Shown: piece after piece, positions 724-35,302 of the stretch | Numbering within the stretch: position 1 is the stretch's first letter | How the letters are laid out: every line of letters starts with the position of its first letter | Origin: a virus | DNA length: 35,430 bases | Direction: 5' to 3' (one strand) | UHGV virus genome: UHGV-0309502 | Program-made: the position numbers and the translations under genes | The notes under the pieces: generated by a model | Seen by the model: the letters and a program-made list of their open reading frames with translations, nothing else | Databases searched by the model: none | What the model was told of the DNA's origin: nothing

Positions 724-1248
724 ATGGTCATTAATTACAAGCAGTTAAGAGAAAAACGGGAGCAGGTAAAGGAGAGCTTTCGCCGCAATGAAGATCTGAC
801 CCCGCTTGTACGCCTTGCCCAGGGCATTGTTGATGCTTATGAAATCTCGCTGGAGCTGCCATCACAGACCTGGACAGATAGCGACGGTAATCGCCAGCAT
901 TACGTTTCATGCGGACTGGAAGCAGCCGAAGGATTTCGCAGAATGCCTTTATCCCAGATCCCTGCCGCTACCCCCAAAGCATGGGGCAGCAATGATGAGC
1001 GAAAACTGACTTTTAGTATTGAAACGGTGGTTGACGACACACCTGGCGAAGTCGCGTTCGTACACACTCCTGTTTCGATCGCAATGTATAACGATGAAAT
1101 ACAGGTTCGCGTTAATAATAATATCGTGCCACTTAAAGAAGGTAATTCACCCTACACCACCGTTTGTGAAGCCATTCAATATTACGTTCTCTCTGAAATT
1201 GATAATCTCAAGCCTGACGGCACCCAGAAAATGGTTCAACTCTGGTAA
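724..1248 (+). CDS. hypothetical protein (174 aa), cargo gene beside the portal gene
   Basis: ORF-track frame 685..1248; ATG at 724 is preceded by GGAGG at 7-nt spacing; ends in a hairpin terminator; no family recognised by eye. Confidence 0.55.
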   Translation: MVINYKQLREKREQVKESFRRNEDLTPLVRLAQGIVDAYEISLELPSQTWTDSDGNRQHYVSCGLEAAEGFRRMPLSQIPAATPKAWGSNDERKLTFSIETVVDDTPGEVAFVHTPVSIAMYNDEIQVRVNNNIVPLKEGNSPYTTVCEAIQYYVLSEIDNLKPDGTQKMVQLW

Positions 1249-1253
1249 AAAGG

Positions 1254-1280
1254 ACAGCCCCATCACGGGGCTGTTTTTTC
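1254..1280. terminator. bidirectional terminator hairpin between convergent genes
   Basis: ACAGCCCC-atca-GGGGCTGT followed by TTTTTT; A-run on the other strand; overlaps the 3' end of Q. Confidence 0.5.
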
Positions 1281-2309
1281 ATCAAGAAGAGCATAAGAGT
1301 TAAAACGGATCACCTCTTCGCCAAGCCAGTCATTGATGTGCTTCATAGCCTCCATGACGGGCATCAGCTCGTTAATTGCGTAAACCCGCGCTGCCTTCTC
1401 CACATCGCCAAACGCACTTTTTTCGCCCGGCATCGCCCCCATCAGTTGCGGCGGAACGCGGTGCGCAGCCAGCACATCATCACGGGATGCCGCCTTAACA
1501 TTCATGAATTCATCTTTTGCGGTGATCTGCTGGAACGGCAAAATTTGCACCCCCTCTTTGCCCCCGTTGGGCGCATGAATGAGCACGTTTTTAAACGCAC
1601 CACCACCACGTGCCCCCTGTAGCGTTTCTTTCAGGGAGTCCATGCTTTCGCGGTTTACCTGCGCTGCACCGATGTAGATGATGCACCCGGCGTGGGATCC
1701 GTTGTCGTAGTACAGTTTTCTGAACATGTCCGCCGAATGAGAAAGGCTGGCCGAGAGTAATGCGCCAAGATATTCCGGCATGCCGTAGATTTCCTGGTTA
1801 ATATCCGGATTCATCAGGTGGCACACTTTGCCAGGACGAAACTGAAACGCGTCCTTGCCATCCTGCACATACCACCATGATTCAAGATCGCTTCCGCGTC
1901 GCATGTATTTCGCCAGGGCGTGCCGTAATTTAAGCGGTTCGCCGAGCATATTGCTTCGAAGCTCAAGGAATGCGTTACCGAACACAAACCAGTCCAGCGC
2001 CAGCGCCGAGAAATCCTGCCGGGAAAGCAGCGGGTGCGGGATGTAGCAACCGAGTAATACATTGCGCTTAAAGTAAAGCGCAGACTGATGCCAGGACGTT
2101 TGCCGGGCAGCTCTTGCCAGACCGTACCAGTCCACCGGGGTTTCATACCACCGCCCGTTATCAGCACAGTACATATTGTCCAGCAGGTCATGCCCGGTCA
2201 GGCGATAAGGACCATCAAATGTGAATGCACTGAGCGATGATTCTTTCCTGAGCGCATCAGCGAGATCAATGCGTGAACTCATGCGCACTTTTTTATTTTT
2301 TCTGCTCAT
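1263..2309 (-). CDS. Q: portal (capsid vertex) protein, P2 gpQ family
   Basis: 348-aa ORF; position and orientation paired with the terminase gene as in the P2 PQ operon; sequence resembles recalled gpQ. Confidence 0.85.
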   Translation of the reverse strand: MSRKNKKVRMSSRIDLADALRKESSLSAFTFDGPYRLTGHDLLDNMYCADNGRWYETPVDWYGLARAARQTSWHQSALYFKRNVLLGCYIPHPLLSRQDFSALALDWFVFGNAFLELRSNMLGEPLKLRHALAKYMRRGSDLESWWYVQDGKDAFQFRPGKVCHLMNPDINQEIYGMPEYLGALLSASLSHSADMFRKLYYDNGSHAGCIIYIGAAQVNRESMDSLKETLQGARGGGAFKNVLIHAPNGGKEGVQILPFQQITAKDEFMNVKAASRDDVLAAHRVPPQLMGAMPGEKSAFGDVEKAARVYAINELMPVMEAMKHINDWLGEEVIRFNSYALLDEKTAP

Positions 2310-4060
2310 CAGAACTCCATAACTGTGAAACGCTCGTTTTCTCCTTCGCCGCCAATTGGTTCGTTAATGACAGCAAGCATGGTTGCCCACGCAAGGTCGC
2401 CGTGGCTGATCCCCCTCGCGCGGTCCGTTTCGTAAGTGATAAAGCCGCCCGGTGTTTTCACCTTACGCACGGCGTTAAAGGCTGCGACCAGCTCGCGTTC
2501 GGCGCGATCGTATTCCCACCGCCCGGCACGCATTATTTGCAGCATTTTCAGTACCAGCGACCGTTTTGATGACAGCGTGAAGGTGTACGGAATAGCAGCA
2601 GGGAAAAACCGTTTCACTATCTGATAAACAGCCTCCCCGTTCCCGCCCGTCACATCAATGCCGATGTGTTCCACGTTGTAGCGACACGTGAACTCTTCAA
2701 TGACTCTGGCCTGTTCTTCAAACTCCAGCCCCTGAACGCGTCGCGTCTCCACCGTTCGAAAACGGCCACCAGGAACAGACGGAGGAACCACCACGGACAC
2801 AGCGCCGCTGTCGCCGTTGCCACTGCTGCCGTTTGCGTCATACCCAATCCATACCGGACGATTCCCCATCGGGCGGGGAGCAAAAGGTTTCCAGTCTTTC
2901 CAGTCGTCGTATCCGTCAACACCACAGCCAATCAGGATATTCAGGTTAAATGCCGATTCCCCTTCGCGGACAAACTCACACATATAGAGATTGAGGAACT
3001 CGTCTTCGGTGTTTTCATCACGAATTTCATCAATATCGGTGTGTTTCCAGCCGTGATTAACCACATCTTCCAGCGTGACAATTTGCCGCCACGTCCGGTC
3101 AGGGCAGATAAGCCCGTTATGCAGCGTTTTCCAGTCCACAGAAAAACGCTGGCGTTTATGCGTGGCCTTTTTCTCGTTCCAGCGGTCGCCGTTCCAGTAG
3201 GCGTATGCCTCGTGCGTTTCGGTGGATGGCGTGGAGAAGTAGGTGCGCCGCAGTCCGCTGAGGGTTGCCATAGCGCCAGCCACCTTGCGCAGTTCAGCAA
3301 AGCGACTGACCCAGAAAAATTCATCAAAATAAAAATTGCCCGTATAGGACTGCGCCGACGCAGCAGAAGTGCCGAGAAAATGCAGCTCTGCGCCGTTGGA
3401 GAGGATGATTTTATCGCCCCCTTTCAGCTCCACATCAACTTCAGCCGCGGCCTTCTGAATAATGCTTTTAAACTGGAACGCCTGACGACGCGACGCAGAC
3501 AAAAAAATCTGGTTACGCTGGTAAGGTTGCGCCACATCGTCACGCAGCGCCATCAGCAGTGCTTCCTGTGCAAAATACCAGGTCGCGCCAATCTGTCGGG
3601 ATTTCAGGATCATCCTGTTACGTATCCCGGCTTCCCTGCAAAGGGTCAGGGAGTCAAACCAGCCCCGCTGATGCCACTCCAGCCTGCTGATGATTTTTTC
3701 CCGCAGTGCGACAATCTGTTCCGGCGTGAAATGATTTTTGAGTTTTTTCGCCCGGCCTTTCTTTCCTGTGGCCGTCGCATCCGGCTGGCCATCATGCATT
3801 TTTTTAAGCTGCCGGGTCAGCAGGTCTATTTCCTTAAAGTCACCGCCTGTTTTATTCTGTTTTTCAGTAAGCTGGATGAGGCGCGCATCGATGGACTGCG
3901 TGACACGCTGCACGGGTGGCGTTTCATCCCACTGGTCGCGTTTTTTCCACGCATAAATCGTGTTCGGGTTTATTCCCATCAGACGTGATATTTCTGCGGG
4001 CGGATAACCCTGCCAGTAAAGTTGCCGCGCACGCTGGCGCACAAAAGCGTCCTGAATCAT
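2309..4060 (-). CDS. P: terminase large (ATPase) subunit, P2 gpP family
   Basis: 583-aa ORF; 1-nt overlap with Q; divergent from the O-N-M capsid operon as in P2. Confidence 0.85.
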   Translation of the reverse strand: MIQDAFVRQRARQLYWQGYPPAEISRLMGINPNTIYAWKKRDQWDETPPVQRVTQSIDARLIQLTEKQNKTGGDFKEIDLLTRQLKKMHDGQPDATATGKKGRAKKLKNHFTPEQIVALREKIISRLEWHQRGWFDSLTLCREAGIRNRMILKSRQIGATWYFAQEALLMALRDDVAQPYQRNQIFLSASRRQAFQFKSIIQKAAAEVDVELKGGDKIILSNGAELHFLGTSAASAQSYTGNFYFDEFFWVSRFAELRKVAGAMATLSGLRRTYFSTPSTETHEAYAYWNGDRWNEKKATHKRQRFSVDWKTLHNGLICPDRTWRQIVTLEDVVNHGWKHTDIDEIRDENTEDEFLNLYMCEFVREGESAFNLNILIGCGVDGYDDWKDWKPFAPRPMGNRPVWIGYDANGSSGNGDSGAVSVVVPPSVPGGRFRTVETRRVQGLEFEEQARVIEEFTCRYNVEHIGIDVTGGNGEAVYQIVKRFFPAAIPYTFTLSSKRSLVLKMLQIMRAGRWEYDRAERELVAAFNAVRKVKTPGGFITYETDRARGISHGDLAWATMLAVINEPIGGEGENERFTVMEF

Positions 4061-26480: not shown

Positions 26481-27482
26481 TTACCCTCTATTGTCAAAAG
26501 GGTTCAATTCAACAGCAGCCTCTAAATGACCTGGAGCAAAATGCGCATAACGCATAGTCATTTTTATATCGCTATGCCCCAGTATTTTTTGCAACACAAG
26601 AATATTTCCGCCCCGCATCATAAAATGACTGGCAAACGTGTGACGTAGCACATGAGTTAATTGCCCATCAGGAAGCTCGATCTTCGCTCTCTTAATTGCA
26701 GCGTCAAAAGCCTCATAACATGGTGAAAATAGCGCTCCTCGTTTTTTAGGAAGCATAGCCTGCAATTGAGGTGAAATCGGTACAGTGCGGTTCTTCTTTC
26801 CTTTAGTTTTAACAAATGTGATTCGACCGGGCAGTACTTGAGATTGCTTTAATCCTTCTGCTTCACTCCACCGAGCACCCGTCGCAAGCCCAATACGGAC
26901 AACAACCCCCAAATCTTTATTCCGTGACTCATCACACGCAATCAGAAGGCGTTCAATCTCATCTACATACAGAAACGCCAGTTCCTTTTCTTCCTCACGA
27001 AACTTGCGAATACCAGTCAGGGGGTTTTCACCAGACCACTCCCCAAGGCGCTTCAGTTCGGCAAAAACAGCATGTAGATATGACTGCTCGCGATTAACGG
27101 TTGCTTCACTAAGTTTTTTCTTCCCCTTGGGATTCCATTCTCCTGATAGCCTTCTTTCCCGATAAGTAGCAAACATATTTTTGTCAAACTGAGAAGCAAA
27201 TGGATCTCCCAGCCTGGAACAAATCGCCTCAAGTTTGACTTTGCGCTCTGCACCAGAGGACAAGGTTTTACCGTACATCTCAAACCAACGAGCAATCAAC
27301 TCAGAAAGACGAGGACCAGAACCATCTTGAAACTCGTCTCCAACTCTACTATTCATTAAACGGCGCTCATAAGAGAGCGCCTCACTTTTTGTCGCAAACT
27401 GTTTACGAATGCGTTTTCCCGATGCCCCGTAGGGATAACATTCGCAAAGCCATTTACCTGATGGAATCTTACGAACCGACAT
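26481..27482 (-). CDS. int: tyrosine integrase, P2 Int family
   Basis: 333 aa; GKRIRKQF, GARWSEA, RTVPIS, HVLRHTFASHFMMRGG, MRYAHFAP match the recalled P2 Int pattern; adjacent to the att core. Confidence 0.9.
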   Translation of the reverse strand: MSVRKIPSGKWLCECYPYGASGKRIRKQFATKSEALSYERRLMNSRVGDEFQDGSGPRLSELIARWFEMYGKTLSSGAERKVKLEAICSRLGDPFASQFDKNMFATYRERRLSGEWNPKGKKKLSEATVNREQSYLHAVFAELKRLGEWSGENPLTGIRKFREEEKELAFLYVDEIERLLIACDESRNKDLGVVVRIGLATGARWSEAEGLKQSQVLPGRITFVKTKGKKNRTVPISPQLQAMLPKKRGALFSPCYEAFDAAIKRAKIELPDGQLTHVLRHTFASHFMMRGGNILVLQKILGHSDIKMTMRYAHFAPGHLEAAVELNPFDNRG

Positions 27483-27487
27483 TTTAG

Positions 27488-27835
27488 TTACTTATCACAT
27501 AAATCAAATGCAGCCTTAGTGACATCCCCCAGACTCTTTTTTAACCCTGGGGCGGCATCATTATCTAGCCAAAATGGATTATTGTTATCTAACGGTAACG
27601 CACCAAATGTTTTACCTTTTATTCGAGCCAAACCTGTAAGTGCATATAACTTATTATCGTCAAAATTCATCACATAAGGATTACCATCAAGACACTGTAA
27701 TTGAACCTCATCAGTATTAAATGGCCATACCCCATTGAAACTCTCACGTTCAATAGTTTTAAAAGGCATTGCGACGGCGGAAAAAGAAAACATAGATAAA
27801 AAAGTAACTAATAGTTGAACCTTTTTTACTTTCAT
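27488..27835 (-). CDS. secreted/periplasmic protein of unknown function (115 aa)
   Basis: N-terminal signal peptide MKVKKVQLLVTFLSMFSFSAVA; AT-rich; between repressor and int on the same strand. Confidence 0.5.
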   Translation of the reverse strand: MKVKKVQLLVTFLSMFSFSAVAMPFKTIERESFNGVWPFNTDEVQLQCLDGNPYVMNFDDNKLYALTGLARIKGKTFGALPLDNNNPFWLDNDAAPGLKKSLGDVTKAAFDLCDK

Positions 27836-27864
27836 ATCATTACCTCAATTTAGCTCAAGTAAGA

Positions 27865-28515
27865 TTACAAATTAAAAAATGCCCTAGAAATGACACCACC
27901 TACCAAAACCCCTACGCAGATAAAGAATATTATTTCTTTTGGATAAAGTCGGATTAATTCTGAAGCACGAAGTCGGACTTCTGGTAAGGTCGAACTCTCT
28001 GTGTGGCTTGATGCCGATTGTTGCTCTAACCACGACAATGCAGACTGTAACTGAGAACGAGTAAGATCGTTTAAACGTCCTGTACCGAAATTGATATGGC
28101 AATACCGCAGAAGTTTTTGTCGAAGTCCACAGTCTTCACTGTTACGTAGTAATAAACTTACAAGAGCCTTACAGGCATCATGATCTTTACATCGCTCAAG
28201 CATTGCATGCAGAAAACTCTCCGCTGTTTTATATTGATTTACTGTCATATCATCAATACCAGTTACACCAATCTCCGCATGTACTTTTTGCCAAATAATA
28301 AACGCTTCAGTATTGCTAGCTTCTGCAATAGCAGCAACCAAGCTATTTAGCTCCTTACGCTGAGCCTTAAGCAAAGGGCGATCGTCATCATCATTATTCG
28401 AAGGGATTGCGATATTGACGGTCTGAGAACCATCATATCGCTCTATCTGAATATTCTTTTCGTGAAAATCACGCCCAGCAACGCGATTGTTTGAACCGTT
28501 TGAGTTGACGGCCAT
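27865..28515 (-). CDS. C-terminally membrane-anchored protein of unknown function (216 aa)
   Basis: C-terminal hydrophobic helix EIIFFICVGVLVGGVISRAFF; N-terminal NNRVAGRDF motif repeats the C-terminal motif of the upstream repressor; AT-rich. Confidence 0.5.
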   Translation of the reverse strand: MAVNSNGSNNRVAGRDFHEKNIQIERYDGSQTVNIAIPSNNDDDDRPLLKAQRKELNSLVAAIAEASNTEAFIIWQKVHAEIGVTGIDDMTVNQYKTAESFLHAMLERCKDHDACKALVSLLLRNSEDCGLRQKLLRYCHINFGTGRLNDLTRSQLQSALSWLEQQSASSHTESSTLPEVRLRASELIRLYPKEIIFFICVGVLVGGVISRAFFNL

Positions 28516-28530
28516 GTCACCTCCCTACTA

Positions 28531-28935
28531 TCACCTACCCTTAGTTTCGTTATAGTCACGACCAGCGATACGGTTATTACCACCAGAAATATTTAACTCA
28601 CGTCCTGATGGCTGAGTTTCCTTTTCACTGATCGCACCTTTTAAAGCCCCAATCACCGCATTTTTCACATCTAACGAAGCTGCTCGAAAGCGAGTAATCA
28701 ACTCCTGCTCATCATCGTTATAAGTTTCAGGTGAGTGAATTCCCAACACAACATACTGAACATCAAGGCCAAAACGAGACAGCGCTGCCAAATACGCAGC
28801 ATCAGGAAAGCTATCTCCTTTCTCATATCTAAGCTGAGTTAGCTTTTTGACTCCACCAATGTCGCTCATGGCAACTTGACTAAGTCCCAATCTTTCCCTT
28901 TCCTCACGCAACCGCTGACCAATATCATTTTTCAT
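28531..28935 (-). CDS. XRE-family HTH immunity repressor (C/cI-like) with C-terminal extension
   Basis: 134 aa; N-terminal HTH (QRLREERERLGLSQVAMSDIGGV...); first gene of the leftward operon ending in int; divergent from the early operon. Confidence 0.7.
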   Translation of the reverse strand: MKNDIGQRLREERERLGLSQVAMSDIGGVKKLTQLRYEKGDSFPDAAYLAALSRFGLDVQYVVLGIHSPETYNDDEQELITRFRAASLDVKNAVIGALKGAISEKETQPSGRELNISGGNNRIAGRDYNETKGR

Positions 28936-28950
28936 ACAAAAACCTTGACA

Positions 28951-28968
28951 GGTATCTTTTTTGATACC
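28951..28968. promoter_or_regulatory. candidate operator palindrome in the divergent promoter region
   Basis: GGTATC-tttttt-GATACC perfect 6-bp arms immediately after a TTGACA hexamer (28945-28950), between the repressor and the first early gene. Confidence 0.35.
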
Positions 28969-29010
28969 AAAATGATTTCACGAGCTATTAGATGATCACA
29001 ATATACCACT

Positions 29011-29217
29011 ATGAAACAAGTTCTTCACGATACCAGATCACGCATTCCGCGTAACACCGCCACAGGTCCAAGACTGGCACTTCGGCTGTCCCTCGAGGAG
29101 CGAGCCGTCATTGATGAAATGGCAGCTAAAGAACAACGCTCATCCTCTAACATGGCGCGCATGATCTTCCTTCGCGGCCTAGAGCTAACCCAGAAAGAAC
29201 AAAACAAATCTTCCTGA
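29011..29217 (+). CDS. small early regulatory protein, possibly ribbon-helix-helix type
   Basis: 68 aa; first ORF of the rightward early operon; weak Shine-Dalgarno, so start is uncertain. Confidence 0.4.
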   Translation: MKQVLHDTRSRIPRNTATGPRLALRLSLEERAVIDEMAAKEQRSSSNMARMIFLRGLELTQKEQNKSS

Positions 29218-29233
29218 TCAGGAGGCTAGTGGG

Positions 29234-29437
29234 ATGTCAGGTATAACCATCAATATCAATGTGAATGCCCCCTATGTATCCCTGCAGAAATATGCAGAGA
29301 TAACAGGTATCCCTCTTAATACATGCAAAAAGATGTTGGCTGACGGTCGAATTATTATCCGACCCAAACGCGCCAAAATGGAAAAGCCTGAAGTAAACCT
29401 TGTGGCGATGTTAAAAGACGCTTTGGCTAACAGCTAA
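29234..29437 (+). CDS. Cox/Apl-like small HTH protein (excisionase / early repressor analogue)
   Basis: 67 aa; YVSLQKYAEITGIPLNTCKKMLADGRI resembles the recalled P2 Cox HTH region; GGAGG Shine-Dalgarno. Confidence 0.45.
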   Translation: MSGITININVNAPYVSLQKYAEITGIPLNTCKKMLADGRIIIRPKRAKMEKPEVNLVAMLKDALANS

Positions 29438-34406: not shown

Positions 34407-34808
34407 ATGAAAATTTGTATCGATGACGGCTCCACCAACATCAAGCTGGCATGGACTGAGAACGGCGAACGCCGCAACGCCATCAGCCCGAACAGCTTCA
34501 AGTCGGAATGGTCTGCGCCGTTCGGTGGCACGCAGCCCGCGAACTACATGCTTGATGGCGTGCGCTATGGTTTTGATCCGGTCAGCGATCGCTTTGTCCA
34601 GACAACTGACACGCAATACCAGTACAGCGATGTGAATGTCATTGCCATTCATCACGCGCTGGTCAAATCAGGCATCACGCCACAGGAGGTGGATGTGGTT
34701 GTCACCCTGCCACTGAGCGAGTATTTCGACACAAACGCACAGCCGGACATAGCCAACATCAACCGCAAAAAAAGCCCAGGATTCCCGGGGCGGTTCAGAG
34801 GAGAGTGA
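34407..34808 (+). pseudogene. ParM/StbA-family actin-like ATPase, N-terminal fragment only (133 codons)
   Basis: MKICIDDGSTNIKLAW...ISPNSFK.EW...QYSDVNV.A.HHAL closely parallels the recalled R1 ParM N-terminus; similarity ends after NRKK and the frame stops far short of the ~320 aa of a full ParM. Confidence 0.55.
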
Positions 34809-34810
34809 GA

Positions 34811-35302
34811 ATGCAAATTTCACCGGTTACTCTTCGTGTTGCGAAGGCGTTTATATCCAGACATCACCGACACAATAAACCCCCGGTGGGGCATAAATTC
34901 AGCATTGGTCTGAGAAATGATGCCGGAGAATTGATAGGTGTGGCGACAGCCGGTAGACCTGTTGCACGACATTTGGACGATGGATTAACGCTTGAAGTAA
35001 ATCGCACATGTACCACAGGAGAACGCAACGCTAACAGCGCACTTTATGGTGCTGTCTGGCGGGCAGCAAAGGCTATGGGTTATCAACGTTGTATTACGTA
35101 CACCCAGGCAGATGAATCAGGAGCATCTCTCCGCGCAGCTGGTTTTGTTCGTGTGAAAGAGCTTCCTCCAAGAAAAAGCTGGGCGGAATCAAGCGTCGCC
35201 CTGCGGAGTAAACGCGATCCGGTCGGAAACGGTGGTGTTCCTCGTGTGCTCTGGGAAATCAGGAGAATGAGTACCACTGGCATTCGCATCAAAGGAGAGT
35301 GA
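34811..35302 (+). CDS. hypothetical protein (163 aa)
   Basis: ORF frame 34805..35302; ATG at 34811 after AGAGGAGAG; basic His-rich N-terminus (ISRHHRHNKPP). May belong to the Mom/GNAT-like acyltransferase-fold group sometimes annotated XF1762 family; that is an unverified recollection. Confidence 0.45.
   Translation: MQISPVTLRVAKAFISRHHRHNKPPVGHKFSIGLRNDAGELIGVATAGRPVARHLDDGLTLEVNRTCTTGERNANSALYGAVWRAAKAMGYQRCITYTQADESGASLRAAGFVRVKELPPRKSWAESSVALRSKRDPVGNGGVPRVLWEIRRMSTTGIRIKGE

What the first reader, a model, noticed from the sequence alone, without database searches (positions are those of the whole stretch)
27488..28935. Two envelope-targeted cargo genes co-transcribed with the immunity repressor and integrase, sharing a peptide motif with the repressor
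Between the XRE repressor and int, where P2 has no genes, sit a tail-anchored membrane protein (216 aa) and a signal-peptide protein (115 aa). Both are AT-rich relative to flanking phage genes. The repressor's C-terminal extension (GGNNRIAGRDY) and the membrane protein's N-terminus (GSNNRVAGRDF) carry the same motif at protein level while the DNA has diverged. Genes expressed from the lysogenic operon are classic superinfection-exclusion or lysogenic-conversion loci, and I recognise no family for either. This is my top candidate for an undescribed prophage-encoded envelope system.
Basis: partly seen in the sequence, partly recalled or inferred. Interest (0 to 1): 0.6.

Follow-up and report, generated by a model that had tools for sequence, protein, structure and literature searches.

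The report
Prophage repressor paired with membrane partner
The repressor that keeps this E. coli prophage silent ends in a short peptide that is repeated at the start of a membrane-anchored protein encoded next to it, and the two copies change together across many phages, which points to an undescribed membrane-linked control of the lysogenic switch; the third gene is ordinary swappable cargo.

Summary
On the minus strand, an XRE-type repressor (28935-28531), a 216-aa tail-anchored protein (28515-27865), a 115-aa signal-peptide protein (27835-27488) and int (27482-26481) are packed 15, 29 and 5 nt apart. The repressor ends in LNISGGNNRIAGRDYNE and the membrane protein begins with VNSNGSNNRVAGRDFHE.

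Both proteins belong to named families of unknown function: Flk_N (PF27202) and DUF2511/YebY. They are not a pair. The DUF2511 gene sits in a cargo slot that holds at least 8 unrelated genes in related prophages.

The conserved unit is the repressor plus the membrane protein. All 80 P2-like viral loci carry it, and it also occurs in Mu-like phages. The shared peptide co-varies: in 80 species sampled from the repressor side, cognate tail/head similarity summed to 1645 against 1154±38 for shuffled pairings (0 of 200,000). Most partners are membrane-anchored, some without any Flk_N domain. A tail-less relative has no partner gene.

Best reading: the membrane protein's head mimics the repressor's own tail, as SinI mimics SinR, and couples the switch to the membrane. 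An amyloid-signalling-type pairing is not excluded. No binding or phenotype has been shown.

The parts
28531..28935 (-). XRE-type repressor gene (134 aa), in the position of P2 C, divergent from the cox-like early operon
   Evidence: ORF. HTH Pfam hits fall just below the gathering cut-offs. The AF2 model shows an HTH at residues 1-64 with pLDDT above 90. Foldseek probability is 1.0 to SinR, P22 C2 and P2 C. The repressor role is inferred from position.
28618..28716 (-). Repressor helical hairpin (residues 74-106), the likely dimerisation/oligomerisation element
   Evidence: AF2 helices 74-85 and 88-106. The best structural match is full-length SinR in the SinR/SinI complex, 1b0n. The sequence DE.ELL..FR.APLAVKAAALAAL is conserved across the family.
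28546..28596 (-). Repressor C-terminal tail motif LNISGGNNRIAGRDYNE (residues 114-130), followed by a basic end, TKGR
   Evidence: The region is disordered in the AF2 monomer, pLDDT 40-45. It is conserved in 80/80 P2-like viral loci even though the repressor as a whole is only 32-100% identical to the window's.
27865..28515 (-). Gene for the 216-aa tail-anchored Flk_N-family protein, the repressor's partner
   Evidence: ORF. phrog_5825 at E 6e-103. PF27202 Flk_N is precomputed on the 98%-identical cluster representative and on the homologues. Partial NCBIfam Flk hit, 57.9 bits against a cut-off of 353. 28% identity to E. coli K-12 Flk residues 26-146.
28459..28509 (-). N-terminal head motif VNSNGSNNRVAGRDFHE (residues 3-19) of the membrane protein
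   Evidence: Conserved in 20/20 aligned homologues. pLDDT is 48-61, and the model does not dock it on the helical domain.
27997..28383 (-). Cytoplasmic helical Flk_N domain (residues 45-173), built from two similar three-helix units
27868..27942 (-). C-terminal membrane anchor (residues 192-216)
   Evidence: AF2 helix 192-215. The hydrophobic stretch IIFFICVGVLVGGVI sits at the very end. The anchor is conserved in the family.
27488..27835 (-). Gene for the 115-aa periplasmic DUF2511 (YebY-family) protein: independent cargo in a variable slot
   Evidence: PF10709 at 28.4 bits, above the cut-off of 21. phrog_2950 at E 9e-40. Matches YebY structure 7n0j with both disulfide cysteines aligned. Lowest GC in the interval, 0.353. 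The slot is occupied by other genes in related prophages.
26481..27482 (-). Tyrosine integrase, last gene of the putative lysogenic operon
   Evidence: Int_N and Phage_integrase Pfam hits.
26256..26277 (-). Terminator-like hairpin downstream of int, the first such site on this strand after the repressor
   Evidence: This is a consensus scan only.
28945..28973 (+). Sigma-70-like promoter (TTGACA-17-CAAAAT) facing the early operon, in the repressor/cox intergenic region
   Evidence: This is a consensus scan only. No promoter for the repressor operon itself was called.
29011..29437 (+). Divergent early genes: a 68-aa Arc-like protein (29011-29217) and a 67-aa Cox-like protein (29234-29437)
   Evidence: ORFs. 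The names come from the annotation of the 98%-identical Escherichia phage 520873. Neither has a Pfam hit.

Best explanation
The 216-aa protein is not free cargo. It is a dedicated, inner-membrane-anchored partner of the prophage repressor.

The repressor consists of an HTH domain, a SinR-like helical hairpin and a flexible C-terminal tail. The partner consists of the same peptide at its N-terminus, a cytoplasmic helical Flk_N domain and a C-terminal membrane anchor. I propose that the partner's head mimics the repressor's own tail. Whatever surface the tail engages (another tail, or the repressor core), the head can engage too. The membrane protein can therefore join or cap repressor assemblies and hold part of the repressor pool at the membrane. 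That would tune or break repression in response to a membrane-proximal cue, making it a SinI-like anti-repressor that is membrane-tethered.

Shown:
- the gene pair is conserved;
- the two peptides co-vary between lineages;
- a repressor tail goes with having such a partner gene;
- most partners are membrane-anchored;
- both peptides are disordered in monomer models.

Inferred: physical binding, the direction of the effect (antagonist rather than stabiliser), the signal, and co-transcription.

The 115-aa DUF2511 protein is a separate periplasmic moron in a variable slot. Its function is unknown. By position it could be a lysogenic-conversion or exclusion gene like K139 glo.
For: 1. Conserved pair.
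- 80/80 P2-like IMG/VR loci have a repressor ending in [IV][ST]G..NR[VIA]AGRD[YF] placed 9-18 nt upstream of the Flk_N gene. The repressor itself is only 32-100% identical to the window's.
- Klebsiella and other E. coli prophages show the same arrangement.
- The pair also occurs in Mu-like phages and in Ralstonia phages.

2. Co-variation. Each lineage has its own flavour, shared by tail and head:
- QQFNGPVGTVTTGDVVN / QQFHGAVEQVAAGDIKN
- IHGDVLGNVIKGNVTM / VNGEVGNVVSGDVTI
- QVINGGSNNVQIGSV / QSITDGNGNVQIGKV (here the two genes are convergent, not tandem)

For nine pairs, 2 of 100,000 shuffles reached the cognate sum. For 80 species sampled from the repressor side, with 46 tail flavours and no selection on the cognate score, the cognate sum was 1645 against 1154±38 shuffled, 0 of 200,000.

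3. Association.
- Among repressors with tails rich in G/N/Q/S/T/V, 30/45 have a matching head downstream. Among repressors with other tails, 2/35 do (Fisher p = 1e-8).
- A Flk_N neighbour is present in 23/45 against 1/35.
- A tail-less E. coli relative in the same kind of prophage has no Flk_N gene.

4. Direct mimicry rather than a pocket in Flk_N. Partners lacking any Flk_N domain still carry matching heads, including a 57-aa protein that is only a head plus a TM segment.

5. Membrane anchoring. 26/37 distinct partners have a TM segment by a strict test, and 6 more have short C-terminal anchors. Some also have a small periplasmic domain.

6. Protein-level selection. 5 of the 8 identical residues use different codons.

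7. Structure.
- Tail and head are disordered in AF2 monomer models.
- The repressor's best structural match is SinR in the SinR/SinI complex.
- The Flk_N unit resembles peptide- and protein-binding three-helix modules such as the Red-beta C-terminal domain, and weakly matches anti-repressor PHROGs.
Against: - No binding, localisation or phenotype data exist, and I could not run a complex prediction.
- The direction of the effect is a guess. The partner could equally stabilise or localise the repressor.
- About 10-15 of the 45 tail-bearing repressors have no recognisable partner within 3 kb. One Flk_N-like protein with a head is not next to a repressor (L017). Each part can therefore exist alone.
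- Within Enterobacterales, the motif is nearly the same across repressors only 32-60% identical to the window's. Specificity between co-resident prophages is therefore not evident.
- The permutation tests treat loci as independent although they are related. Flavour clustering reduces this problem but does not remove it.
- The anti-repressor PHROG, GemA and ORF6C hits are weak, and those families are multi-domain.
- That this XRE protein is the immunity repressor is inferred from position only.
Confidence: 0.5

Rival explanations
1. Amyloid-signalling-type pair. The tail and head are a bacterial amyloid signalling motif, like BASS motifs or Bab/Agp. On a trigger, the membrane protein's head nucleates a cross-beta assembly that recruits and inactivates the repressor by templated aggregation, which switches the prophage on. 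This is a special case of the best explanation with a specific structural mechanism.
For: - The genetic signature used to discover such motifs is met: a short motif at the C-end of one protein and the N-end of the next gene's product, with collinear genes a few nt apart or overlapping. The method is described in the preprint read; the pairs are.
- Many flavours are runs of 20-30 residues rich in G/N/Q/V/I.
- Some contain the RHIM/BASS3-like phi-Q-phi-G core: NVQIG in L018 and VQVG/LQVG in L174. The signature is quoted.
- Both peptides are disordered in monomer models.
- A validated pair of this kind, located in a prophage sequence, exists in E. coli.
Against: - The partners are not an NLR/STAND protein and a pore-forming effector.
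- The window's own flavour is short and charged (NRIAGRDYNE), which is atypical for an amyloid core.
- No Pfam amyloid-motif family was hit.
- No fibril, foci or prion-like behaviour has been tested.
- A constitutively co-expressed pair in a stable lysogen would need tight control to avoid spontaneous templating.
Confidence: 0.2
2. The two genes are lysogenic-conversion or superinfection-exclusion cargo acting at the envelope, and the shared motif is incidental to that job (for example co-regulation or co-degradation).
For: - Their position between the repressor and int matches known exclusion genes: K139 cI-orf2-glo-int, with Glo annotated as a periplasmic exclusion protein.
- Both genes are AT-rich.
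- The slot before int is a cargo hotspot.
- One protein is membrane-anchored and the other is periplasmic.
Against: - The two genes do not co-occur as a unit.
- The 216-aa gene is fixed next to the repressor across P2-like and Mu-like phages, whereas cargo varies.
- The bulk of the 216-aa protein is cytoplasmic, which is not what is expected for blocking DNA entry from outside.
- No PADLOC hit. No homology to Glo.
- Co-variation with the repressor tail is left unexplained.
Confidence: 0.12
3. Shared tag for a third party. Tail and head are both recognised by one other factor (a protease, adaptor or chaperone), so the two proteins are co-degraded or compete for it. They do not touch each other.
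For: - Terminal, disordered peptides are typical degrons or adaptor-binding tags (established knowledge).
- Both peptides sit at chain ends.
- Repressor tails always end in a basic patch.
Against: - Several different flavours occur within one host genus. Pseudomonas has at least three. A host factor could not co-vary with each of them.
- No third conserved phage gene accompanies the pair.
- Partners reduced to a head plus a TM segment argue that the head itself is the functional part.
Confidence: 0.08
4. A phage version of Flk. The protein acts on the flagellar type III export gate like chromosomal Flk and alters motility in lysogens. The repressor link only ensures its expression.
For: - The only named relative is Flk: NCBIfam at E 1e-15 and 28% identity over 124 aa.
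Against: - The NCBIfam score is far below the Flk cut-off, 57.9 against 353.
- The protein has one copy of the domain where Flk has two, and it carries the head motif that Flk lacks.
- Flk proteins show no head motif and no repressor neighbour, whereas the phage family nearly always has both.
- Homologues occur in Mu-like phages of many hosts, and partners can lack the Flk_N domain altogether.
Confidence: 0.07

Closest known systems
SinR / SinI of Bacillus subtilis (repressor and antagonist that shares its oligomerisation segment)
   Same: - An XRE-type HTH repressor with a C-terminal helical hairpin. The AF2 model's best PDB match is SinR in the SinR/SinI complex, 1b0n.
- An adjacent gene encodes a protein that repeats a C-terminal segment of the repressor. 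In SinI, that is how the antagonist forms a heteromer with the repressor (established knowledge).
   Different: - Here the shared segment is a disordered 17-30-residue tail beyond the hairpin, not the helices.
- The partner is membrane-anchored and carries an extra Flk_N domain.
- The system sits in temperate phages of Proteobacteria.
- Heteromer formation is untested.
Amyloid signalling gene pairs (fungal HET-S/NWD2, bacterial BASS pairs, E. coli Bab/Agp with BASS11)
   Same: - A motif shared by the C-end of one protein and the N-end of the product of the adjacent, collinear, closely spaced gene.
- Many sequence flavours that match within pairs.
- A G/N/Q/V-rich composition in many flavours.
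- Bab/Agp also lies in a prophage sequence.
   Different: - The partners are a DNA-binding repressor and a tail-anchored protein, not an NLR/STAND sensor and a pore-forming effector.
- The window's flavour is short and charged.
- No amyloid behaviour has been tested.
Flk (Fluke/RflH), flagellar export-switch inhibitor of Salmonella and E. coli
   Same: A homologous cytoplasmic Flk_N domain and a C-terminal membrane anchor.
   Different: - 216 aa against 331-333 aa, and one domain copy against two.
- The phage protein has the repressor-matching head. Flk has a proline-rich N-terminus and no such motif.
- It is phage-borne and sits next to a repressor.
- It fails the NCBIfam Flk cut-off.
ICEBs1 immR-immA-int and similar modules (repressor, its anti-repressor and int in one operon)
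   Same: The gene order: repressor, then a regulator of that repressor, then int, all divergent from the excision and early genes (established knowledge of ICEBs1).
   Different: ImmA is a soluble HEXXH metalloprotease that cleaves ImmR. The 216-aa protein has no HEXXH motif (read directly) and no protease family hit.
Vibrio phage K139 lysogenic operon cI-orf2-glo-int; also lactococcal sie2009 and S. thermophilus ltp (from memory)
   Same: - Extra genes between the repressor and int in a P2-like phage, including a periplasmic protein involved in phage exclusion. This is the best analogue for the DUF2511 slot.
- A BRCT-domain gene like K139 orf2 also fills the slot in Klebsiella prophages.
   Different: - Glo is not homologous to the DUF2511 protein.
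- K139 CI is 215 aa and its sequence contains no copy of the tail motif.
- K139 has no Flk_N partner.
YebY of the E. coli yobA-yebZ-yebY operon, and MlbQ (DUF2511 family)
   Same: The 115-aa protein passes the Pfam cut-off, has a signal peptide, and has both disulfide cysteines aligned with YebY. The YebY paper already noted DUF2511 genes lying between a recombinase and a CI-type repressor in Enterobacteriaceae.
   Different: - It is not in a copper (AZY) operon.
- It is only weakly similar to YebY (E 0.003).
- The function of the phage copy is untested.

Membership tests
Flk_N domain family (Pfam PF27202) | Match to the family profile | tested here: met
   PF27202 is precomputed on the 98%-identical cluster representative P0001 and on essentially all listed homologues. 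It is named Flk_N. The model is absent from the local Pfam copy, so I could not score the window protein itself. The partial NCBIfam Flk hit covers residues 35-166.
Flk (NCBIfam NF007987 equivalog, flagella biosynthesis regulator) | Whole-protein score above the curated cut-off, and Flk architecture (two domain copies, about 330 aa) | tested here: not met
   57.9 bits against a cut-off of 353. 216 aa. Only residues 45-165 align to Flk 26-146. The head motif is absent from E. coli Flk and from the Flk-like representatives.
Tail-anchored inner-membrane protein | A single hydrophobic helix at the extreme C-terminus, with the rest cytoplasmic and no signal peptide | tested here: met
   AF2 helix 192-215 of 216 residues. 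The anchor is conserved. The topology is inferred by analogy with Flk and has not been measured.
DUF2511 / YebY family (Pfam PF10709) | Profile score above the gathering cut-off | tested here: met
   28.4 bits against a cut-off of 21, covering profile positions 2-87 of 87.
DUF2511 / YebY family (Pfam PF10709) | Signal peptide and two conserved cysteines that form a disulfide | tested here: met
   The N-terminal signal-like sequence is read. Both cysteines align with the two cysteines of the YebY chain, which the YebY paper numbers Cys48 and Cys113 of the full-length protein. Actual disulfide formation was not tested.
XRE-family phage immunity repressor | HTH_3-type DNA-binding domain | tested here: met
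   The Pfam HTH hits are just under their cut-offs (23.2 against 27; 19.1 against 23). However, the AF2 HTH has pLDDT above 90, and Foldseek gives probability 1.0 to P22 C2, P2 C and SinR.
XRE-family phage immunity repressor | Represses the early promoter and confers immunity | not testable with these tools
   Only position supports this: the gene is divergent from the cox-like operon, in the place of P2 C.
Amyloid signalling motif pair (BASS-type) | Motif shared by the C-end of one protein and the N-end of the product of an adjacent, collinear, closely spaced gene | tested here: met
   Gaps range from -4 to +38 nt in most pairs. One pair is convergent.
Amyloid signalling motif pair (BASS-type) | Partners are an NLR/STAND-type sensor and a cell-death effector (Bell, HeLo, Bab) | tested here: not met
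   The partners are an HTH repressor and a membrane-anchored Flk_N or other small membrane protein.
Amyloid signalling motif pair (BASS-type) | The motif forms cross-beta fibrils or transmissible foci | not testable with these tools
   Only composition and disorder are known. The window's flavour is charged and short.
SinR/SinI-type antagonism | The antagonist repeats a C-terminal segment of the repressor and is encoded next to it | tested here: met
   Head = tail. The genes are adjacent. The repressor fold is SinR-like.
SinR/SinI-type antagonism | The antagonist forms a heteromer with the repressor and relieves repression | not testable with these tools
   No complex prediction or experiment was available.
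ImmA-type anti-repressor protease | HEXXH metalloprotease motif / Peptidase_M78 domain | tested here: not met
   The 216-aa sequence contains no HEXXH and has no protease family hit.
Known anti-phage defence systems (PADLOC) | Match to a defence-system protein model | tested here: not met
   Neither the 216-aa nor the 115-aa protein has a hit. The repressor has only weak generic HTH hits.

The most novel reading that the evidence does not exclude
Temperate phages of Proteobacteria control their immunity repressor by a prion-like switch. A membrane-anchored protein carries, at its cytoplasmic N-terminus, a copy of the repressor's C-terminal amyloid-type signalling motif. On a membrane cue, it templates the repressor tails into an assembly that pulls the repressor off the DNA. 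This would be the first amyloid-signalling pair whose 'effector' is a transcription factor, and a RecA-independent induction route for P2-like and Mu-like prophages.
Probability: 0.2. Interest if true: 0.95.

Novelty: new variant of a known kind. Interest (0 to 1): 0.76.

Why it matters
- P2-type prophages are the textbook non-inducible case, and what sets their switch is poorly understood. A repressor that is physically wired to a membrane-anchored partner would give such phages a way to read the state of the cell envelope. This prophage type is in roughly one in ten complete E. coli genomes, and relatives occur in Klebsiella, Salmonella, Pseudomonas and others.
- The co-varying tail/head code gives a ready-made set of matched and mismatched pairs. 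That makes the idea directly testable by swapping peptides.
- It also places the enigmatic flagellar regulator Flk in a wider family whose other members are repressor partners.
- Finally, it extends the 'shared terminal motif in adjacent genes' logic beyond cell-death systems. That logic has so far been described for amyloid signalling between immune sensors and cell-death effectors.

Tried and rejected
- PADLOC scan of all four proteins: nothing for either cargo protein.
- PDB sequence search with the Flk_N family profile: no relative with a solved structure. The repressor has no PDB sequence hit either.
I used A1 and the repressor alignment instead.
- tblastn against isolated phage genomes: only Escherichia phage 520873 and three Ralstonia phages carry the gene, so the family is known mainly from prophages.
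- Intramolecular docking of the head on the Flk_N domain: not seen in the AF2 model. Partners without that domain also exist. The 'common pocket in Flk_N' idea was therefore dropped.
- Rosetta-stone fusion of repressor and Flk_N. phrog_17822 is hit by the repressor and by 2 Flk_N members. I found no fusion among the 374 retrieved proteins; the only double hit is the head part of the Flk_N profile matching a repressor tail. The lead is unresolved.
- Homology between the DUF2511 protein and K139 Glo: none.
- A DNA- or RNA-level explanation of the repeat: rejected. Identical residues use different codons, and Rfam finds nothing in 25400-29300.
- Read-through fusion of the two genes: rejected. Three consecutive stop codons separate them, and other loci have 4-nt overlaps in different frames.
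- tRNA at the attachment region: none found.
- A known SOS-type anti-repressor among the nine window ORFs I scanned: no Pfam hit. The scan was not exhaustive.
- Literature searches for Flk-like prophage proteins or membrane-bound anti-repressors: nothing relevant.
Full report
**1. What is in the window**

The window is a P2-like phage genome (Peduoviridae, genus Xuanwuvirus). The int-repressor region is 98% identical to Escherichia phage 520873. It is at least 99% identical to a prophage beside yecA in 481 complete E. coli genomes. Of 5426 genomes, 599 have a match and 516 cover at least 80% of the region.

On the minus strand lie four genes:
- an XRE-type repressor, 28935-28531, 134 aa;
- a 216-aa protein, 28515-27865;
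- a 115-aa protein, 27835-27488;
- int, 27482-26481.

The gaps are 15, 29 and 5 nt. Shine-Dalgarno-like sequences precede the second and third genes. The first terminator-like hairpin on that strand comes after int. Co-transcription is therefore plausible but inferred. Their GC content is 0.41 and 0.35, against 0.53 for the window.

**2. The motif is real**

The repressor ends in LNISGGNNRIAGRDYNE-TKGR. The 216-aa protein begins MA-VNSNGSNNRVAGRDFHE.
- In the 11-residue core, 8 residues are identical, and 5 of those 8 use different codons.
- The local score of 62 was never reached in 20,000 composition-preserving shuffles (highest 42).
- The motif occurs nowhere else in the six-frame translation of the 35 kb window.

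**3. What the two proteins are**

The 115-aa protein is a DUF2511/YebY-family periplasmic protein. It passes the Pfam cut-off. It has a signal peptide, and it aligns with the YebY structure, including both disulfide cysteines. The YebY paper had already noted such genes between a recombinase and a CI-type repressor in Enterobacteriaceae.

The 216-aa protein belongs to the Flk_N family, PF27202.
- It is 28% identical to the first domain of E. coli Flk, but far below the NCBIfam Flk cut-off.
- AF2 shows a disordered N-terminus (residues 1-44, pLDDT 48-61), a confident helical domain (45-173, pLDDT 95-98) and a terminal membrane helix (192-215).
- Family members weakly hit anti-repressor PHROGs, GemA and ORF6C.
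- The family is small, with 134 representatives at 50% identity. It splits into phage-type proteins of about 200 aa with an N-terminal head motif, and chromosomal Flk proteins of about 330 aa without one.

**4. The two extra genes are not a pair**

All 80 P2-like IMG/VR loci that carry the Flk_N gene have a repressor directly upstream (9-18 nt) that ends in the same motif. This holds even though the repressor as a whole is only 32-100% identical to the window's.

The position between the Flk_N gene and int, in contrast, is variable. DUF2511 is present only in the window's lineage and two other loci. Elsewhere the slot holds a BRCT-domain protein, DUF8087, a 298-aa protein (weak TerB hit; its C-terminal part reads like a BRCT domain), a tail-anchored coiled-coil protein, a zinc-ribbon protein, a lipoprotein-like protein and others. 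The DUF2511 gene is therefore ordinary moron cargo. Its closest analogue by position is K139 glo, in the operon cI-orf2-glo-int, to which it is not homologous.

**5. The repressor and the membrane protein are a unit, and their shared peptide co-varies**

The same gene pair occurs in Mu-like prophages and in Ralstonia phages. There, both peptides have changed, and they have changed together:

| Locus | Repressor tail | Partner head |
|---|---|---|
| L012 | QQFNGPVGTVTTGDVVN | QQFHGAVEQVAAGDIKN |
| L014 | IHGDVLGNVIKGNVTM | VNGEVGNVVSGDVTI |
| L015 | QVFHGKVGQSIAGNV | QVFREDVGQAVAGDL |
| L016 | VGQYIEGSVNQAG | VGQVAEGDINNFG |
| L103 | GQIAGGNIY | EQIAGRDIY |
| L105 | QIFNGDISGQFAGNQIIN | QEFNGTAQGQFSSRDIIN |
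| L019 | PTGDIFGRDLV | PVGDVAGRDII |
| L018 | QVINGGSNNVQIGSV | QSITDGNGNVQIGKV |

In L018 the two genes are convergent rather than tandem. In L019 a third, multi-TM gene also starts with the motif.

Statistics:
- For nine pairs, the cognate score sum was reached by 2 of 100,000 shuffled pairings.
- I then sampled from the repressor side, taking 80 species from GTDB genomes. With tails clustered into 46 flavours, and no selection on the cognate score, the cognate sum was 1645 against 1154±38 for shuffles, 0 of 200,000.
- Tails rich in G/N/Q/S/T/V have a matching head downstream in 30 of 45 loci, against 2 of 35 for other tails (Fisher p = 1e-8). A Flk_N neighbour is present in 23 of 45 against 1 of 35. 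The 30 is an undercount, because some true pairs score below the threshold.
- A tail-less member of the repressor family, in the same kind of E. coli prophage, has no Flk_N gene.

**6. What the partners have in common is the head and a membrane anchor**

Partners that the Flk_N profile misses still begin with the cognate head. They are small membrane proteins, and one is only 57 aa (a head plus one TM segment). Others add a coiled coil, a TM segment and a small cysteine-containing periplasmic domain.

By a strict test, 26 of 37 distinct partners have a TM segment, and 6 more end in a short hydrophobic anchor. This argues against a model in which both peptides bind a pocket in the Flk_N domain. 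It favours the view that the head itself is the functional element.

**7. The repressor**

AF2 gives an HTH domain (1-64), a helical hairpin (74-106) and a disordered tail (106-134, pLDDT 40-45). The best structural match is full-length SinR in the SinR/SinI complex, followed by P22 C2 and P2 C. Tails across the family are very diverse. Nearly all are 20-30 residues rich in G, N, Q, V and I, and they end in a basic patch.

**8. Explanation**

The most economical reading is tail mimicry. The membrane-anchored partner displays a copy of the repressor's own tail, so it can engage whatever the tail engages (another tail or the repressor core). That links repressor assemblies to the inner membrane.

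By analogy with SinI/SinR, and with the immR-immA-int layout of ICEBs1, I favour an antagonist (anti-repressor) role that couples the lysogenic switch to a membrane-proximal signal. The partners with periplasmic domains fit a trans-membrane sensor. Binding, direction and signal are all inferred.

A host third-party factor is unlikely, because several flavours coexist within one host genus and no third phage gene is conserved with the pair.

**9. The more novel possibility**

The genetic signature is exactly the one used to discover amyloid signalling motifs: the C-end of one protein equals the N-end of the product of the next, collinear, nearly abutting gene. A validated pair of that type, Bab/Agp, exists in E. 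coli, in a prophage sequence. Some flavours here even contain the RHIM/BASS3-like phi-Q-phi-G core: NVQIG and VQVG/LQVG.

Against this reading, the partner proteins are of a different kind, the window's flavour is short and charged, and nothing about fibril formation could be tested. I give it about 0.2.

**10. Limits**

- There are no expression, binding or phenotype data.
- Only monomer models could be run.
- The permutation tests assume independence of loci that are related by descent.
- About 10-15 tail-bearing repressors lack a recognisable partner, and one head-bearing Flk_N-like protein lacks a neighbouring repressor.
- The repressor role of the XRE protein rests on position alone.

**11. 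Verdict**

The 'two-gene envelope cargo system' reading is not supported.

Noticed in passing
L019:1656-3708 (Ralstonia phage YO107_2, ON170188.1): Three consecutive genes carry the same motif flavour: the repressor C-end (PTGDIFGRDLV), the N-end of the 285-aa Flk_N-like protein (PVGDVAGRDII), and the N-end of a multi-TM protein at 3229-3708 (MNRQDFHGPVGQVAGRDIINI). One repressor may therefore have more than one membrane partner.
   Followed up: partly
L011:2951-3946 (E. coli K-12 flk) versus window 27865-28515: Chromosomal Flk shares the Flk_N domain (duplicated) and the tail anchor but lacks the head motif. Only 134 representatives exist at 50% identity. Roughly 80 of them are head-type proteins of 160-300 aa, and the ones whose context I checked lie in prophages. 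flk may therefore be a domesticated copy of this phage gene family.
   Followed up: no
window 25500-25895 (-): An AT-rich ORF (GC about 0.35-0.41) lies on the other side of the attachment region. It is 131 aa from a TTG start, with an internal Met that begins a signal-peptide-like sequence. The predicted small protein is secreted and rich in Cys and Gly (GNCACPYNHARNGSRCGGRSAYSRNGG). It has no credible Pfam hit. It is probably another moron.
   Followed up: partly
L003:5647-6513, L093:3551-4447, L188:2194-3099: The cargo slot before int often holds BRCT-domain proteins of about 290 aa. One type is in Klebsiella prophages. Another is a 298-aa protein with a weak TerB hit and a BRCT-like C-terminal part. 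K139 orf2, in the same position, is also annotated as a BRCT-domain protein. This is a recurrent lysogenic-operon cargo type, and nothing I found assigns it a function.
   Followed up: partly
L100:3357-4132 (E. coli P2-like prophage with a tail-less repressor): Where the repressor lacks the tail, the two genes before int encode a 117-aa zinc-ribbon protein and a 140-aa tail-anchored coiled-coil protein. The same two families also turn up as cargo in some Flk_N-carrying prophages (L087, L081).
   Followed up: no
L002 (Escherichia phage 520873, NC_049344.1) 1039-3065: In the only closely related isolated-phage record, int is annotated as two pieces, and the Flk_N gene matches in three pieces with no annotation. 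This suggests frameshifts or sequencing errors, which would explain why the pair is invisible in phage annotation.
   Followed up: no
window 34407-35302 (+): Near the window's end lie a 133-aa ORF that matches only the N-terminal part of ParM/StbA (E 2e-63) and a 165-aa Mom-like ORF. These are further accessory genes downstream of the replication gene.
   Followed up: no
phrog_17822: One PHROG family of 267 positions is hit by the repressor (positions 5-103) and also by two Flk_N-family members. It could be a repressor/Flk_N fusion, or just the shared motif. I found no fusion among the proteins retrieved.
   Followed up: partly
L136 and L138 (both from Lysobacter sp. CA199): One genome carries two repressors of this family, with different G/N-rich tails. 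Neither has a recognisable head-bearing partner within 3 kb. Tails can therefore exist without partners, which fits the tail having a function of its own in the repressor.
   Followed up: partly
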